A stretch of 32,958 nt of DNA from a virus (Duplodnaviria; Heunggongvirae; Uroviricota; Caudoviricetes). The stretch spans positions 1 to 32,958 of IMG/VR virus record IMGVR_UViG_646862326_000003; one strand, 5' to 3'. Each line of letters starts with the position of its first letter. Position 1 is the stretch's first letter. Below are positions 7,793-27,546 of the stretch, piece after piece. Both the position numbers and the translations under genes were made by a program. The notes under the pieces are model-generated. The model searched no databases. It had not been told where the DNA came from and saw only the letters and a list, made by a program, of their open reading frames with translations.

Positions 7793-8524
7793 ATGGATAC
7801 TATAATCGCTTTTCTATCACTCGCTTTTTTCGTTGCTTTCTTCATCGGGTTAATCAAGCCATCACTGGTGCGAATGCCAAACCGCAAACGTGCAAGTGCG
7901 GTTTATCTCGGAGGAGGTTTTGTATTGAGCATAATTGGTTCAATACTCTATCCAACAGAAAAAAGCCAGCCAGTTGCTAAAACTGAAACATCAACCGTTG
8001 CAGAACACAAAGTCCAAAAAACATTCGAATATGGTGAAAAAACACTCAAGGAATATCGGAACGAGTCAAAGAAAACACGACACGATATTGTGAATAGTTA
8101 CATTGATTTTAAGGAAGTTCCAGCCACCGCGTCAGATGCGTTTTATGCCTGCATGAGTGAGTATACATTTACCAAAGATGATGAGTTGAAACTCGGTGAT
8201 GTTCTTGGGTGGTGCTTTAATGATTATGAAAATGACCCGAATTCACTAAACAATAAAATCAATCTTGATACATTTCAGAGTAATTTTAGTGGTTGGGATG
8301 GTTCTTATCGTCCATTGGAAAAACTAATTAAAGATAATATGAACGATGATTCATCTTATAAACATGTGTCAACGGTATATCATCTGGTTTTGAATAAAGA
8401 CCCGCATGCCATTGTGAAAACCACGTTTCGCGGAACTAATGCTTATGGAGGAGTGGTGAAACAGACGATTGCTGCGCGTGTTGATATAAAAACTGGTAAG
8501 GTGATATCAATCATAGATAATTGA
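7793..8524 (+). CDS. AT-rich cargo gene 1: membrane protein with two N-terminal transmembrane helices and a C-terminal soluble domain (243 aa)
   Basis: Start placed at the ATG preceded by AAGGA (the track start 7751 has no Shine-Dalgarno). Hydrophobic helices IIAFLSLAFFVAFFIGLI and AVYLGGGFVLSIIGSILY. Visibly AT-rich relative to the structural genes. Sits in the P2 old/tin accessory position. Followed by a strong intrinsic terminator. Confidence 0.65.
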   Translation: MDTIIAFLSLAFFVAFFIGLIKPSLVRMPNRKRASAVYLGGGFVLSIIGSILYPTEKSQPVAKTETSTVAEHKVQKTFEYGEKTLKEYRNESKKTRHDIVNSYIDFKEVPATASDAFYACMSEYTFTKDDELKLGDVLGWCFNDYENDPNSLNNKINLDTFQSNFSGWDGSYRPLEKLIKDNMNDDSSYKHVSTVYHLVLNKDPHAIVKTTFRGTNAYGGVVKQTIAARVDIKTGKVISIIDN

Positions 8525-8533
8525 TATCTTACA

Positions 8534-8575
8534 ATGCCGACGCTGAATATTTAATTGGGTGTCGGCATTTTTTTT
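8534..8575 (+). terminator. Rho-independent terminator after cargo gene 1
   Basis: Perfect 8-bp stem ATGCCGAC (8534-8541) / GTCGGCAT (8561-8568) followed by TTTTTTT (8569-8575). Confidence 0.6.
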
Positions 8576-8635: not shown

Positions 8636-9418
8636 ATGAAAGTTATAAACCAACTTAAGAAGTTTGATAAGAAAAGAACGCCAGATGATGGCCGTATTAG
8701 TTTGTTATATGAAAACGCGATTAAGTATGATATGTACTCTGTATATATTAAAGATAAAAATGATACAGAATACCTCTTTGACTGTTTGGTTGATGGGAAG
8801 ATAAAGGCTTTTAAATGGGATGATGAGGAACGTAGATTTCATATAAGTTCATACTTGGATATTTCTGAGCTTACGCCTGATTCTTTTTTTGGTATTTATT
8901 ACTACCGTGCGCATGAGTTGCGATTTAACTCTTTAAATGATTTAACCTTTTTAAGGGAGTTGTTTTTTAGAGTGAAGTCTAATTATGAAAATATAAAGTT
9001 TAGTCGTGAAAAATATATTTATCGACAGCAAAAAAAAGAAATAACTGATGTGATGCTTGTTCTCTCAACGATTATAAGAATGTATCGTGAACGGGATGCT
9101 GAAACTGTGTTTAGTGAGTTTTCAATAATGACCGAAGTCGCTGGTAGTTTATGGGTATACCATGACGATAAAAACAGGATGCGTAAAGAGCTTCGTTTAT
9201 GCCTGAATTCTCTTGTTCAGAATGGAGATCTTGTTGAAACAAGTAGTGGATTTAGGCTAACAGGAAAGGCACTGAACACAATATCTACATTCAATAAAGA
9301 TGAGTTGCGGTACAGAGAGAATTTGAGCACTCAGAAGAAAATGTTTTGGGCTACTTTTTTCGCAGCAGTCGGCGGCGTAGGAAGTATGATTGCAGCTATA
9401 ATAGGGCTTCTAAAATGA
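8636..9418 (+). CDS. AT-rich cargo gene 2: soluble domain with C-terminal transmembrane tail anchor (260 aa)
   Basis: C-terminal FWATFFAAVGGVGSMIAAIIGLL is a single predicted transmembrane helix. A 60-nt sample at 8641-8700 is 35% GC versus 58% for a sample at 13321-13380 in the capsid region. No recognisable catalytic motif. Confidence 0.65.
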   Translation: MKVINQLKKFDKKRTPDDGRISLLYENAIKYDMYSVYIKDKNDTEYLFDCLVDGKIKAFKWDDEERRFHISSYLDISELTPDSFFGIYYYRAHELRFNSLNDLTFLRELFFRVKSNYENIKFSREKYIYRQQKKEITDVMLVLSTIIRMYRERDAETVFSEFSIMTEVAGSLWVYHDDKNRMRKELRLCLNSLVQNGDLVETSSGFRLTGKALNTISTFNKDELRYRENLSTQKKMFWATFFAAVGGVGSMIAAIIGLLK

Positions 9419-9766: not shown

Positions 9767-10801
9767 TCAGCCGTTGTCAGTGTCCAGTGAGTAGTTTTTA
9801 AAGCGGATGACCTCCTGACCGAGCCAGCCGTTTATCTCGCGGATCCTGTCCTGTAGCGGGATAAGCTCATTGCGGACAAAGACCTTTGCCACTTTCTCAA
9901 TATCACCCAGCGACCCGACGTTCTCCGGCTTGCCGCCCATCAACTGAAAGGGGATGCGGTGCGCGTCCAGCAGGTCAGCGGCGCTGGCTTTTTTGATATT
10001 AAAAAAATCGTCCTTCGTCGCCACTTCACTGAGCGGGATAATTTTAATGCCGTCGGCTTTCCCCTGCGGGGCATAGAGAAACAGGTTTTTAAAGTTGTTG
10101 CGGCCTTTCGACTTCACCATGTTTTCGCGAAGCATTTCGATATCGTTGCGGTCCTGCACGGCATCGGTGACGTACATGATGTATCCGGCATGTGCGCCGT
10201 TTTCGTAATACTTGCGGCGGAACAGCGTGGCTGACTCATTCAGCCAGGCAGAGTTAAGGGCGCTGAGATATTCCGGCAGGCCGTACAGCTCCTGATTAAT
10301 ATCGGGCTCCAGCAGGTGAAACACGGAACCGGGCGCGAAGGCTGTCGGCTCGTTGAAGGACGGCACCCACCAGTAAACATCCTCCTCCACGCCACGGCGG
10401 GTATATTTTGCCGGTGAGGTTTCCAGTCTGATGACCTTACCGGTGGTGCTGTAACGCTTTTCCAGAAACGCATTACCGAAAACCAGAAAATCCAGCACAA
10501 AGCGGCTGAAATCCTGCTGGGAAAGCCACGGGTGCGGGATAAACGTTGAAGCCAGAATATTACGTTTGACGTAAATCGGTGAGCTGTGATGCACGGCAGC
10601 ACGCAGACTTTTTGCCAGACCGGTAAAGCTGACCGGTGGCTCATACCATCTGCCGTTACTGATGCATTCGACGTAATCCAGAATGTCACGGCGGTCGAGT
10701 ACCGGCACCGGTTCGCCAAAGGTGAATGCCTCCATTTTCGGGGCGCTGGCGGTCATTTTTTTTGCCGCAGGTTGCAGTGTTTTCCCTTTTTTCTTGCTCA
10801 T
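9767..10801 (-). CDS. Q: Portal protein gpQ (344 aa)
   Basis: Size and position match P2 Q; ATGA overlap with the P stop on the minus strand; transcribed divergently from the O operon. Confidence 0.9.
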   Translation of the reverse strand: MSKKKGKTLQPAAKKMTASAPKMEAFTFGEPVPVLDRRDILDYVECISNGRWYEPPVSFTGLAKSLRAAVHHSSPIYVKRNILASTFIPHPWLSQQDFSRFVLDFLVFGNAFLEKRYSTTGKVIRLETSPAKYTRRGVEEDVYWWVPSFNEPTAFAPGSVFHLLEPDINQELYGLPEYLSALNSAWLNESATLFRRKYYENGAHAGYIMYVTDAVQDRNDIEMLRENMVKSKGRNNFKNLFLYAPQGKADGIKIIPLSEVATKDDFFNIKKASAADLLDAHRIPFQLMGGKPENVGSLGDIEKVAKVFVRNELIPLQDRIREINGWLGQEVIRFKNYSLDTDNG

Positions 10802-24184: not shown

Positions 24185-24712
24185 ATGCAGCATTTAAAAA
24201 ATATTACTGCGGGTAATCCAAAAACTGTTGCCCAATATCAACTGACAAAAAATTTTGATGTTATCTGGTTATGGTCCGAAGAGGGAAAAAACTGGTATGA
24301 GGAAGTAAGTAATTTTCAGGAAGACACGATAAAGATTGTTTACGACGAGAATAATATAATTGTCGGCATCACCAGAGATGCTTCAACGCTTAACCCTGAA
24401 GGTTTTAGCGTTGTCGAGGTTCCTGATATTACCGCCAACCGACGTGCTGATGACTCAGGTAAATGGATGTTTAAGGATGGTGCTGTGATTAAGCGGATTT
24501 ATACGGCAGACGAACAGCTGCAACTGGCGGAATTACAGAAGTCAGCTTTGCTTTCCGAAGCTGAAACTATCATTCAGCCACTGGAACGCTCTGTCAGACT
24601 GAATATGGCAACAGATGAGGAGCGTAGCCGACTGGAAGCATGGGAACGCTACAGTGTTCTGGTCAGCCGTGTGGATCCTGCAAATCCTGAATGGCCGGAA
24701 ATGCCGCAATAA
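24185..24712 (+). CDS. G: Tail fibre assembly chaperone gpG (175 aa)
   Basis: [40 protein letters not shown] matches P2 G as recalled; immediately follows H. Confidence 0.88.
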
Positions 24713-25133: not shown

Positions 25134-25976
25134 ATGAAAAAAGAATTGTTTGGACGTTGCCCGTTTGATCTTGACGAAGATGTAAAAAAAATAGCCGCGA
25201 TAAATAAATATATCCATGCAAAATTTGAGGAGCATAAAAATAAAATAGACAACCTAAAGGGTGTGGAACAAAAATTGATGGTCTTACAGTACTTTAATGT
25301 ACTGAATGAACTTAGTAATCAGGCTATCTCTTCTTTGAATATAGGAGCCTTTTCAGCATCGGAAGTATTAGCTAGGGTTATAATAGAACAGGCTGCCAAT
25401 CAATTTTATATAGCAATAGATGATGGCGAAAATGCACAAGCATTACTCAAGGCTAGTAAGAAATTAGTTCATAGTAATGGAAAACGGTGGCTGGAGTGTT
25501 TAAAATCCAAAGGAATGACTAATCCAGCAGCAAATGAAAGGATTCGCATGGGAAAAGAACTAACTGATCTATTTAATAGATTGTGGCCAAATACACCTGA
25601 ATATCCAGGAACCAGAAAACTTTTTGAATTAATTGGCTGGGAAACACACTATCATGCCCATTACGTTCCCCTTTGTGATTCAATACATACATTCTCTGAT
25701 GATATGGTAAATATAGTATCTCTATATAATGCAATCCAAAGTGATGAAACTACTGCTATCGAATTCATTCTTGCAGTTAAACAAGAAAATAAACGGCTGG
25801 CAATTTATAATTTTGTAATTGCTACGGCCCTTCGGTGTGAGGCCTTAGTAAATGTATTTAACTCTTTAGGTTATCAGGATATTATAACAGAAATGACACC
25901 AACAATAGATACAGTCAACCAGACTATAATTCGATATGATGATTTTGATCATTCCAGAATTGATGATTGTCAATAA
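25134..25976 (+). CDS. AT-rich cargo gene at the Z/fun position between G and FI: soluble protein of unknown function (280 aa)
   Basis: Coordinates as given in the ORF track; by my base count the ATG falls about 10 nt upstream, so the exact start needs checking against the sequence. A 60-nt sample at 25201-25260 is 25% GC. No transmembrane segment or recognisable catalytic motif. Sits between G and FI where P2 carries Z/fun. Confidence 0.7.
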   Translation: MKKELFGRCPFDLDEDVKKIAAINKYIHAKFEEHKNKIDNLKGVEQKLMVLQYFNVLNELSNQAISSLNIGAFSASEVLARVIIEQAANQFYIAIDDGENAQALLKASKKLVHSNGKRWLECLKSKGMTNPAANERIRMGKELTDLFNRLWPNTPEYPGTRKLFELIGWETHYHAHYVPLCDSIHTFSDDMVNIVSLYNAIQSDETTAIEFILAVKQENKRLAIYNFVIATALRCEALVNVFNSLGYQDIITEMTPTIDTVNQTIIRYDDFDHSRIDDCQ

Positions 25977-26355: not shown

Positions 26356-27546
26356 ATGAGCGACTATCATCATGGCGTGCAGGTGCTGGAGATTAACGAC
26401 GGCACCCGCGTCATTTCCACCGTATCCACCGCCATTGTCGGCATGGTCTGCACGGCCAGCGATGCGGATGCGGAAATCTTCCCCCTCAATAAACCGGTGC
26501 TGATCACCAATGTGCAGAGCGCAATTGCAAAGGCCGGTAAAAAAGGCACGCTGGCGGCATCGTTGCAGGCCATCGCTGACCAGTCAAAACCGGTCACCGT
26601 TGTCGTGCGCGTGGAAGACGGAACCGGCGACGACGAAGAAACGAAACTCGCGCAGACCGTTTCCAATATTATCGGCACCACTGACGAAAACGGTCAGTAC
26701 ACCGGACTGAAAGCCCTGCTGGCGGCGGAGTCGGTAACCGGTGTTAAACCGCGCATTCTCGGTGTGCCGGGACTGGACACCAAAGAGGTGGCTGTTGCAC
26801 TGGCATCAGTCTGTCAGAAGCTGCGCGCTTTCGGGTATATCAGCGCATGGGGCTGTAAAACCATTTCCGAGGTGAAAGCCTACCGTCAGAATTTCAGCCA
26901 GCGTGAGCTGATGGTCATCTGGCCGGATTTCCTCGCATGGGATACGGTCACCAGTACCACCGCCACCGCGTATGCTACCGCCCGTGCACTGGGCTTGCGC
27001 GCTAAAATCGACCAGGAGCAGGGCTGGCATAAAACACTGTCCAACGTCGGGGTGAACGGTGTTACCGGCATCAGCGCATCTGTATTCTGGGATTTGCAGG
27101 AGTCCGGCACTGATGCTGACCTGCTTAACGAGTCAGGCGTCACAACGCTGATTCGCCGTGATGGTTTCCGCTTCTGGGGTAACCGTACCTGCTCTGATGA
27201 CCCGCTGTTCCTCTTTGAAAACTACACCCGCACCGCGCAGGTGCTGGCCGACACGATGGCTGAGGCGCACATGTGGGCGGTGGACAAGCCCATCACCGCA
27301 ACGCTGATTCGCGACATCGTTGACGGCATCAATGCCAAATTCCGTGAGCTGAAAACAAACGGCTATATCGTGGATGCGACCTGCTGGTTCAGCGAAGAAT
27401 CCAACGATGCGGAAACCCTCAAGGCCGGAAAACTGTATATCGACTACGACTATACACCGGTGCCTCCTCTCGAAAACCTGACCCTGCGCCAGCGTATTAC
27501 CGATAAATACCTGGCAAATCTGGTCACCTCGGTTAACAGCAATTAA
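26356..27546 (+). CDS. FI: Contractile tail sheath protein gpFI (396 aa)
   Basis: MSDYHHGVQVLEINDGTRVISTVSTAIVGMVCTASDADAE matches P2 FI as recalled; size 396 aa. Confidence 0.92.
   Translation: MSDYHHGVQVLEINDGTRVISTVSTAIVGMVCTASDADAEIFPLNKPVLITNVQSAIAKAGKKGTLAASLQAIADQSKPVTVVVRVEDGTGDDEETKLAQTVSNIIGTTDENGQYTGLKALLAAESVTGVKPRILGVPGLDTKEVAVALASVCQKLRAFGYISAWGCKTISEVKAYRQNFSQRELMVIWPDFLAWDTVTSTTATAYATARALGLRAKIDQEQGWHKTLSNVGVNGVTGISASVFWDLQESGTDADLLNESGVTTLIRRDGFRFWGNRTCSDDPLFLFENYTRTAQVLADTMAEAHMWAVDKPITATLIRDIVDGINAKFRELKTNGYIVDATCWFSEESNDAETLKAGKLYIDYDYTPVPPLENLTLRQRITDKYLANLVTSVNSN

What the first reader, a model, noticed from the sequence alone, without database searches (positions are those of the whole stretch)
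7793..8524. Cargo gene 1: two N-terminal transmembrane helices plus a soluble domain; possible Tin-like or superinfection-exclusion protein
The 243-aa product has two predicted transmembrane helices (IIAFLSLAFFVAFFIGLI; AVYLGGGFVLSIIGSILY) followed by a roughly 180-aa polar domain with no motif I recognise. It has its own Shine-Dalgarno (AAGGA) and is followed by a strong intrinsic terminator (8534-8575), so it may be an independent single-gene unit. Its size is near what I recall for P2 Tin, but I cannot confirm similarity from memory.
Basis: inference. Interest (0 to 1): 0.7.

Follow-up and report, generated by a model that had tools for sequence, protein, structure and literature searches.

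The report
Phage 186 Orf97-type exclusion protein
This gene is a close relative of coliphage 186 orf97, a little-studied prophage membrane protein whose database record says it blocks phage 186 infection when expressed; it is real and interesting, but not a new kind of gene and not related to P2 Tin.

Summary
The ORF at 7793-8524 is real. It has a Shine-Dalgarno site, two N-terminal transmembrane helices, a strong terminator straight after it, and dN/dS of 0.09-0.23.

It is not Tin-like (BLASTP E=1.3). It is the ortholog of coliphage 186 Orf97: 77% identical over all 243 residues with no gaps, in PHROG 3403. The 186 record annotates orf97 as "expression from plasmid blocks 186 infection".

In 186 the gene follows the antirepressor gene tum in a LexA-controlled SOS operon. 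Here tum, the LexA box and the internal terminator are all missing, so regulation differs.

Topology, two invariant cysteines, and lipoprotein or zinc-ribbon-anchored relatives all put the ~170-aa soluble part in the periplasm. The model shows a helical lobe with weak resemblance to HdeA/HdeB, plus an ~85-aa alpha+beta core. That core defines a large family with no Pfam model (2,942 clusters).

The gene works independently of gene 2. Neighbouring cargo of 150 aa or more falls into 24 clusters, and in 13 loci, as in 186 itself, there is no partner.

Best reading: an inner-membrane-tethered periplasmic superinfection-exclusion protein that blocks entry of P2/186-type phages. The mechanism is inferred, not shown.

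The parts
7793..8524 (+). Gene 1: orf97-type CDS, 243 aa plus stop
   Evidence: ORF listing and sequence; 77% identity and no gaps to phage 186 Orf97; PHROG 3403 over 1-243/243, E=2.3e-147; dN/dS 0.09-0.23
7783..7787 (+). Shine-Dalgarno AAGGA, 5 nt upstream of the ATG
   Evidence: Sequence; the GGA is invariant in an 8-locus alignment across genera
7710..7792 (+). Leader homologous to the 186 tum-orf97 spacer; the t95a partial-terminator hairpin is degenerate here
   Evidence: Alignment A3. The hairpin folds at -21.7 kcal/mol (z -4.9) in 186 but only -8.9 (z -1.4) in the window. t95a is annotated in NC_001317
7802..7855 (+). TM helix 1 (residues 4-21)
   Evidence: Hydrophobic segment; model helix 2-21; the 'GLIKP' motif at its end is invariant or nearly so and recurs in distant relatives
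7856..7897 (+). Conserved basic loop (residues 22-35, KPSLVRMPNRKRAS), inferred to be cytoplasmic
   Evidence: Five K/R residues, so cytoplasmic by the positive-inside rule (inference); P23, V26, M28 and R31 are invariant
7898..7951 (+). TM helix 2 (residues 36-53)
   Evidence: Hydrophobic segment; model helix 31-52
7952..8008 (+). Variable, low-confidence linker (residues 54-72)
   Evidence: pLDDT below 50 for residues 54-72; poorly conserved and indel-rich in A1
8045..8281 (+). Helical lobe of the periplasmic domain (residues 85-163) with invariant Cys120 (8150-8152) and Cys141 (8213-8215)
8282..8521 (+). C-terminal alpha+beta core (residues 164-243; FSxWDGS(H/Y)...K...S.xH..T...N..G motif): the widespread module with no Pfam model
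   Evidence: Helix 173-181 plus four strands; many deep-search hits match only positions ~160-243; F165, S166, G170, K180, S188, H191, T194, N216 and G219 are at least 90% conserved in 126 distant relatives; no Pfam model
8533..8575 (+). Intrinsic terminator ending the gene 1 transcript
   Evidence: -22.2 kcal/mol, z -5.78, followed by a U-run
7351..7569 (+). Upstream small ORF (72 aa; RefSeq aa) occupying the place tum holds in 186; not a Tum homolog
   Evidence: PHROG 11386, unknown function; BLASTP against Tum E=0.038 over 22 residues; upstream of gene 1 in 29 loci, none with a LexA box
8636..9418 (+). Gene 2: the variable cargo slot downstream of gene 1 (260 aa, C-terminal TM helix). A neighbour, not an obligate partner
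   Evidence: PHROG 7611; TM at residues 241-259; present in only 16 of the loci examined and 5 of 83 E. coli genomes that carry gene 1

Best explanation
Gene 1 is the ortholog of coliphage 186 orf97, carried here on a P2-type prophage backbone. SHOWN: full-length homology; a two-helix N-terminal hairpin followed by a well-folded ~170-aa domain; independence from gene 2. INFERRED: the hairpin sits in the inner membrane with its conserved basic loop in the cytoplasm, and the two-lobed, disulfide-stabilised domain faces the periplasm. From there the protein excludes superinfecting P2/186-type phages, most likely after adsorption, by interfering with tail-tip penetration or DNA passage across the periplasm and inner membrane. 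In 186 the gene is switched on together with the antirepressor Tum when LexA is cleaved. That would protect an induced cell, which has just lost repressor immunity, from being superinfected. In this window the SOS control (tum, LexA box, t95a) has been lost. The gene is therefore presumably transcribed by read-through from the upstream early genes or from an unrecognised local promoter, and transcription stops at the terminator at 8533-8575.
For: Identity: 77% identity, 243/243 residues, no gaps to 186 Orf97; 442 bits against the family HMM; PHROG 3403 full length. Phenotype of the ortholog: the NC_001317 note 'expression from plasmid blocks 186 infection', and the annotated operon p95-LexA box-tum-t95a-orf97-t95b. 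Periplasmic location: K/R-rich loop between the helices; invariant Cys120 and Cys141; relatives carry the same domain behind a lipobox, behind a zinc ribbon plus one TM, or behind a small cytoplasmic domain plus one TM. Folded domain: pLDDT above 90 for residues 80-243. Autonomy: terminator; neighbouring cargo of at least 150 aa falls into 24 clusters and 13 loci have none; copies also sit next to ogr/gpD or the integrase in other prophages. Accessory status: 35-42% GC against 50-58% in the backbone; about 1.6% of complete E. coli genomes; 138 viral contigs. Changed regulation: 66 loci have tum plus a perfect LexA box, 29 including the window have neither; the t95a hairpin is lost.
Against: The only functional evidence is a one-line database note about plasmid expression of a 77%-identical ortholog. 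I could not read the primary paper. Over-expressing a membrane protein can block infection non-specifically. Nothing here shows which step is blocked or which phages are affected. No expression evidence exists for this window and no consensus promoter was found in 7570-7792. There is no sequence similarity to any characterised exclusion protein. The core domain also occurs in non-phage, even housekeeping, neighbourhoods in other phyla, so it is not specific to phage exclusion. On P2-type backbones the gene always has a same-strand downstream neighbour, so some functional coupling cannot be fully excluded.
Confidence: 0.6

Rival explanations
1. Gene 1 serves the phage's own induction or lytic programme or protects the envelope, for example as a periplasmic chaperone-like or lysis-timing factor made when the SOS operon fires. 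The reported block of 186 infection would then be a side effect of plasmid over-expression.
Confidence: 0.2
2. Gene 1 and gene 2 form one two-gene membrane defence system, a sensor plus a tail-anchored effector, acting by abortive infection.
For: Same strand, 111 bp apart, both membrane proteins. The gene 2 family is the second most frequent neighbour (16 loci) and is seen with both the 100% and the 77-79% gene 1 alleles. On P2-type backbones gene 1 always has some downstream partner.
Against: A strong terminator separates them. Only 5 of 83 E. coli genomes with gene 1 carry gene 2. Neighbours of at least 150 aa fall into 24 unrelated clusters. 13 loci, and phage 186 itself, have gene 1 directly before cos and Q. 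Per the 186 annotation, orf97 is credited with the block of infection with no partner mentioned. Neither protein hits PADLOC.
Confidence: 0.07
3. Gene 1 is a host-benefit lysogenic-conversion factor (envelope modification, stress tolerance or virulence) unrelated to phages.
For: It is an AT-rich moron-like gene with its own terminator. Strains carrying it include UPEC and APEC isolates. It is an extracytoplasmic domain of unknown function.
Against: The ortholog's annotated phenotype is phage exclusion. The location is a hotspot already shown to be rich in anti-phage genes (PMC9122126). No similarity to any virulence or stress family was found.
Confidence: 0.08
4. Gene 1 is a Tin-like protein that poisons T-even phage replication.
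For: Similar size (243 against 253 aa) and the same hotspot as P2 tin.
Against: No sequence or profile similarity. P2 tin is on the opposite strand and co-transcribed with old. Gene 1's functional domain is predicted to be outside the cytoplasm, whereas from memory, unverified, Tin targets the cytoplasmic T4 gp32.
Confidence: 0.01

Closest known systems
Coliphage 186 Orf97 (NP_052294; PHROG 3403)
   Same: 243 aa, 77% identical with no gaps; same 2-TM hairpin plus soluble domain; same position after the replication and early genes and before cos and the portal gene; followed by a terminator.
   Different: In 186 it is the second gene of the LexA-repressed p95 SOS operon, after tum and the partial terminator t95a. 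The window has no tum, no LexA box and a degenerate t95a hairpin, sits on a P2-type backbone (orf91 plus a 72-aa ORF upstream), and has a variable gene inserted downstream.
T4 Imm and Sp (spackle), phage-encoded envelope exclusion proteins
   Same: Phage-encoded. Imm's annotation describes a membrane change that leaves superinfecting DNA in the periplasm, and Sp is annotated as periplasmic. The 186-type regulation likewise expresses the gene when the lytic programme starts.
HK97 gp15 and P22 SieA/SieB, prophage membrane exclusion proteins
   Same: Small prophage moron or accessory genes. gp15 is followed by its own putative terminator, sieA and sieB have their own annotated promoters, and SieA/SieB are annotated as excluding other phages.
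   Different: No homology (5.4 bits or less). gp15 is 62 aa with no sizeable periplasmic domain. From memory, unverified, SieB acts by abortive infection from the cytoplasmic side.
P2 Tin and Old, the canonical cargo of the same gpA-gpQ hotspot
   Same: Same hotspot; non-essential lysogenic-conversion genes that block other phages.
   Different: Unrelated sequences; opposite strand; Old is annotated as an AAA-family ATPase and exonuclease, whereas gene 1's functional domain is predicted to be periplasmic.
HdeA/HdeB periplasmic acid-stress chaperones
   Different: 5-16% identity. Only one lobe matches. Orf97 has an extra alpha+beta core and a membrane anchor. This is resemblance, not demonstrated homology.

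Membership tests
Phage 186 Orf97 family (PHROG 3403) | Full-length sequence homology to 186 Orf97 | tested here: met
   77% identity, 243/243 residues, no gaps, E=2e-149; PHROG 3403 1-243/243, E=2.3e-147
Phage 186 Orf97 family (PHROG 3403) | Location in a P2/186-type prophage between the replication and early genes and the cos-portal end | tested here: met
   gpA 4584-6911 upstream and portal 9767-10801 downstream; the same holds in most of about 90 related loci
Phage 186 Orf97 family (PHROG 3403) | Membership of the LexA-controlled SOS operon (p95, LexA box, tum upstream, t95a) | tested here: not met
   No Tum homolog in the window, no CTGT-N8-ACAG box within 1 kb upstream, and the t95a hairpin is degenerate. 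This is a feature of 186-type regulation, met in 66 related loci, not of the protein family as such.
Phage 186 Orf97 family (PHROG 3403) | Expression blocks infection by 186-type phage | not testable with these tools
   Known only from the annotation note in NC_001317. The primary paper, Brumby et al. 1996, Virology 219:105, is not held.
P2 Tin | Sequence homology to P2 Tin | tested here: not met
   BLASTP E=1.3; hhalign probability 0.05%; -1.6 bits against the family HMM
P2 Tin | Co-transcription with old on the strand opposite to gene A | tested here: not met
   P2 tin and old lie on the minus strand with a shared old-tin mRNA. Gene 1 is on the same strand as A and no old homolog is adjacent.
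Classical Sie/Imm proteins (P22 SieA, SieB, gp17; T4 Imm, Sp; HK97 gp15) | Sequence homology to any of them | tested here: not met
   All score 5.4 bits or less against the A1 and A2 profiles, with hmmsearch filters off
Classical Sie/Imm proteins (functional class) | Phage-encoded envelope protein that prevents productive entry of superinfecting phage | tested here: inconclusive
   Envelope location is inferred and the ortholog is annotated as blocking infection, but the blocked step is unknown.
HdeA/HdeB chaperones | Homologous helical fold with the family's disulfide | tested here: inconclusive
Two-gene defence system with gene 2 | Consistent co-occurrence and co-transcription of both genes | tested here: not met
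   Terminator between them; gene 2 present in 5 of 83 E. coli genomes that carry gene 1; 24 neighbour clusters and 13 partner-less loci
Known defence systems (PADLOC 2.0) | Match to any PADLOC model | tested here: not met
   No hit at E of 1 or better

The most novel reading that the evidence does not exclude
The ~85-aa C-terminal alpha+beta core (FSxWDGSH...K...SxxH..T...N..G) is an undescribed, pan-bacterial extracytoplasmic domain family with 2,942 50%-identity clusters and no Pfam model. It is attached to interchangeable anchors: a 2-TM hairpin, a zinc ribbon plus TM, a lipobox, or other cytoplasmic domains. Orf97 would be its first member with a phenotype. If the domain is a general module that recognises or blocks an envelope step used by invading phages, many small 'hypothetical' membrane and lipoproteins in prophages and defence islands would be unrecognised exclusion factors. 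The SOS-linked 186 form would then be a dedicated 'exclusion at induction' device.
Probability: 0.25. Interest if true: 0.65.

Novelty: new member of a known kind. Interest (0 to 1): 0.4.

Why it matters
Orf97 has been a named but essentially unexplained gene of a classic model phage since the 1990s, and surveys of the P2 hotspot still list it as 'hypothetical'. Tying this window's gene to Orf97 gives it a testable function, exclusion of related phages. It separates it from the truly variable cargo gene next to it, and gives a concrete structural hypothesis: a periplasmic, disulfide-bonded two-lobe domain on a conserved 2-TM hairpin. It also exposes a large family with no Pfam model built around the C-terminal core. 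Practically, P2/186-type prophages are common in clinical E. coli, Klebsiella and Salmonella, so an envelope-level exclusion factor bears on phage host range and on the choice of therapeutic phages. It is not a new kind of system, and the key phenotype still rests on an old, thinly documented observation.

Tried and rejected
(1) Tin homology: rejected.
(2) Homology to P22 SieA/SieB/gp17, T4 Imm/Sp and HK97 gp15: rejected.
(3) Pfam, NCBIfam and PADLOC on gene 1: nothing. Pfam on 126 distant relatives hit only the N-terminal zinc ribbons and other extra domains.
(4) PDB by sequence profile: nothing. Foldseek against the PDB: nothing significant, only weak NTF2-like hits. BFVD: only uncharacterised phage proteins.
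(5) LexA box and sigma-70 promoter upstream of gene 1 in the window: none convincing.
(6) Two-gene system with gene 2: rejected on distribution.
(7) The PHROG scan of distant relatives gave hits to 'superinfection exclusion' PHROGs 8545 (2 of 126) and 4980 (1 of 126). I could not identify which members or regions matched; a follow-up on the ten largest members did not include them. In those ten, the extra PHROG hits other than phrog_21933 fell in N-terminal add-on regions, so I do not use this as evidence.
(8) One search was an error. I queried a sequence typed from unreliable memory that is not a verified protein. Its result is meaningless and is not used.
(9) The search for related loci with the broad alignment A2 failed because no stretch was conserved enough.
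(10) Accession and name searches of the literature found no paper on mechanism. Rousset et al. 2022 list these loci only as 'DUF3850/ASCH + hypothetical + hypothetical'. The 2026 NAR hotspot paper does not mention the gene. Brumby et al. 1996 is not held.
(11) Neighbourhoods of the stand-alone core-domain proteins were heterogeneous and gave no clear functional association.

Full report
OBSERVATION. The window is a P2-like prophage. It holds an integrase at 1-996 (-), replication gene A at 4584-6911, an orf91-like DUF3850/ASCH gene at 6875-7363, a 72-aa ORF at 7351-7569, gene 1 at 7793-8524, gene 2 at 8636-9418, then the portal gene Q (9767-10801, -) and the terminase. The cargo DNA is 100% identical to E. 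coli MS7163. Gene 1 is exactly as described. AAGGA lies 5 nt before the ATG at 7793. Two hydrophobic helices cover residues 4-21 and 36-53. A hairpin at 8533-8569 plus a U-run follows the gene (-22.2 kcal/mol, z = -5.8). The pattern scanner missed this terminator only because of its long loop. Homologs across Enterobacterales all begin at the same Met. Unsaturated pairwise dN/dS values are 0.09-0.23. The ORF is a real gene under purifying selection.

WHAT IT IS. Pfam, NCBIfam and PADLOC give nothing. PHROGs gives a full-length hit to family 3403, of unknown function. A tblastn search of annotated phage genomes with the soluble domain identified the namesake, orf97 of coliphage 186. The pairwise alignment is 77% identical over all 243 residues without a gap. 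The 186 RefSeq record annotates orf97 with 'expression from plasmid blocks 186 infection'. It places the gene as the second gene of the SOS operon: promoter p95 with a LexA site, tum (antirepressor), partial terminator t95a, orf97, terminator t95b. The primary reference cited for that operon, Brumby et al. 1996, Virology 219:105 (reference list of PMC5322425), is not in the library, so the phenotype rests on the record's note. Salmonella prophage BTP5 is reported to carry tum and orf97 homologs (PMC5322425). Transcriptomics of BTP5 mention tum but not orf97 (PMC7067206).

WHAT IT IS NOT. P2 Tin, taken from NC_001895, shows no similarity: BLASTP E=1.3 and hhalign probability 0.05%. With hmmsearch filters off, P22 SieA, SieB and gp17, T4 Imm and Sp, HK97 gp15, and P2 Tin and Old all score 5.4 bits or less against the family profiles. 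186 Orf97 scores 442 bits.

ANATOMY. An AlphaFold2 model built from a 46-sequence alignment has mean pLDDT 85, and above 90 for residues 80-243. It shows two N-terminal helices, a disordered and variable linker (54-72), a helical lobe (85-163), and a helix plus four-stranded sheet (173-241). The loop between the TM helices (KPSLVRMPNRKRAS) carries five basic residues and is among the most conserved parts of the protein: G19, L20, P23, V26, M28 and R31 are invariant. By the positive-inside rule the loop is cytoplasmic and the large domain periplasmic. Two independent observations support that. Cys120 and Cys141 are invariant. And an exhaustive profile search shows the same domain behind lipoprotein signal peptides, behind a zinc ribbon plus one TM, behind a small cytoplasmic domain plus one TM, or behind the same 'GLIKP' 2-TM hairpin. 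All of these architectures export the domain.

That search found 2,942 50%-identity clusters at E of 1e-3 or better, and 1,341 at 1e-10 or better. Many match only the last ~85 residues. In 126 diverse members the nearly invariant positions are F165, S166, G170, K180, S188, H191, T194, N216 and G219. No Pfam model covers the domain in any of them. As a stand-alone protein of about 125 aa the core occurs in Flavobacteriia, Nitrospirota, Desulfobacteria, Bacillota and others, always 'hypothetical'.

AUTONOMY AND MOBILITY. Gene 1 occurs in 83 of 5,426 complete E. coli genomes, but the whole gene 1 plus gene 2 block in only 5. The 186-type allele adds about five genomes. I examined about 110 loci from genomes and viral contigs. 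Between gene 1 and the portal gene, ORFs of 150 aa or more fall into 24 clusters. The two commonest are a 205-244-aa family with an N-terminal TM (22 loci) and the gene 2 family (16 loci). The representative downstream partners compared directly fall into at least six unrelated families; one is PDC-S64-like, one is an ORC/CDC6-like ATPase, and a GDSL lipase also occurs in one locus. In 13 loci, and in phage 186 itself, nothing lies between gene 1 and cos/Q. In Morganella and Xenorhabdus prophages the homolog sits next to ogr and gpD, and in Brenneria and Mixta next to the integrase. With the intervening terminator, this makes gene 1 an autonomous unit and gene 2 the occupant of the variable slot downstream of it. 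One caveat: on P2-type backbones gene 1 was always followed by some same-strand gene.

REGULATION HAS CHANGED. Of the loci examined, 66 have tum directly upstream plus a perfect CTGT-N8-ACAG LexA box. 29, including this window, have the unrelated 72-aa ORF and no LexA box. 14 are otherwise arranged. The ~90 bp before the start codon are homologous between the two types. But the t95a hairpin, strong in 186 (-21.7 kcal/mol, z -4.9), is lost in the window type (-8.9, z -1.4). No consensus sigma-70 promoter was found in 7570-7792. So the gene here is either read through from the early operon or uses an unrecognised promoter. This is unresolved. Gene 1 has 35-42% GC and the whole cargo region 31-42%, against 50-58% in the backbone.

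MECHANISM (inferred). The best-supported model is an inner-membrane-anchored periplasmic protein that prevents productive entry of superinfecting P2/186-type phage. In the 186 arrangement it would be deployed exactly when LexA cleavage and Tum abolish repressor immunity. This works like T4 Imm/Sp or HK97 gp15, but the protein belongs to none of those families. Confidence that it is an Orf97 ortholog is about 0.97. Confidence in the exclusion-at-the-envelope mechanism is about 0.5-0.6. Rivals are an induction or envelope-protection role with the exclusion phenotype as an artefact (0.2), a host-benefit conversion factor (0.08), a two-gene system with gene 2 (0.07), and a Tin-like protein (0.01).

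PRIOR KNOWLEDGE AND NOVELTY. Rousset et al. 2022 catalogued these loci only as 'DUF3850/ASCH + hypothetical + hypothetical' and did not test them. Later P2 surveys do not mention the gene. The gene is therefore a new member of a known, named but mechanistically unexplained family. New here are the topology and fold model, the size and anchor diversity of the core-domain family, the loss of SOS control on P2-type backbones, and the demonstration that gene 1 is independent of gene 2.

ERRORS AND LIMITS. One search used a query typed from unreliable memory and must be ignored. The AFDB library was unavailable. I could not determine which distant relatives matched the PHROGs annotated 'superinfection exclusion', so that lead is not used as evidence.

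Noticed in passing
window 8636-9418 (+): Gene 2 is a 260-aa protein with a single C-terminal TM helix (tail-anchored), in PHROG 7611 of unknown function, with no Pfam or credible PADLOC hit. It recurs downstream of gene 1 in 16 loci, with both the 100% and the 77-79% gene 1 alleles, but is absent from most.
   Followed up: partly
window 25134-25976 (+): A 280-aa DUF5677 protein sits between the tail-fibre assembly gene (24185-24712) and the sheath gene (26356-27546). From memory of the P2 map, this is where the Z/fun accessory gene sits. No PADLOC hit.
   Followed up: partly
window 2889-3392 (-): An IS1 transposase ORF lies inside the early region, between a 168-aa ORF (2034-2540; by position probably gpB, from memory of the P2 map) and the orf80-83/A block. 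The prophage may be defective, or the insertion may be polar on replication genes and on any read-through into gene 1.
   Followed up: no
window 6875-7363 (+): The orf91-like gene encodes a DUF3850/ASCH plus DUF7415 fusion of 162 aa by the ORF call, longer than P2 Orf91, whose CDS is 330 bp.
   Followed up: no
window ~8480-8524 (3' end of gene 1): Megablast matches to gene 1 in many E. coli genomes stop at about nt 689-705 of 732. Breakpoints of cargo swaps therefore seem to lie inside the last ~30-40 nt of gene 1, and its C-terminal residues vary with the downstream partner.
   Followed up: partly
L116 4558-5378, L118 4564-5378, L119 4591-5381: In Bacteroidota-type contigs the stand-alone ~125-aa core-domain protein directly abuts or overlaps an upstream ORF of ~135-148 aa. 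This may be a conserved two-gene unit. Its neighbours include TPR proteins, TerD/PRTase clusters, restriction-related genes and phage-like genes.
   Followed up: no
L001 7427-9729 (E. coli MS7163): In MS7163 an IS21-family element (ISEc12, istAB) lies between the portal and terminase genes, whereas in the window these two genes abut. The window therefore comes from a different copy of this prophage than MS7163, despite the 100% identical cargo.
   Followed up: no
L003 3021-3956; also L038, L040, L041: One alternative partner of gene 1 (311-326 aa) matches the PADLOC candidate PDC-S64 over its N-terminal ~85 residues (E=3.6e-17). The variable slot downstream of orf97 can therefore hold candidate defence genes.
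   Followed up: no
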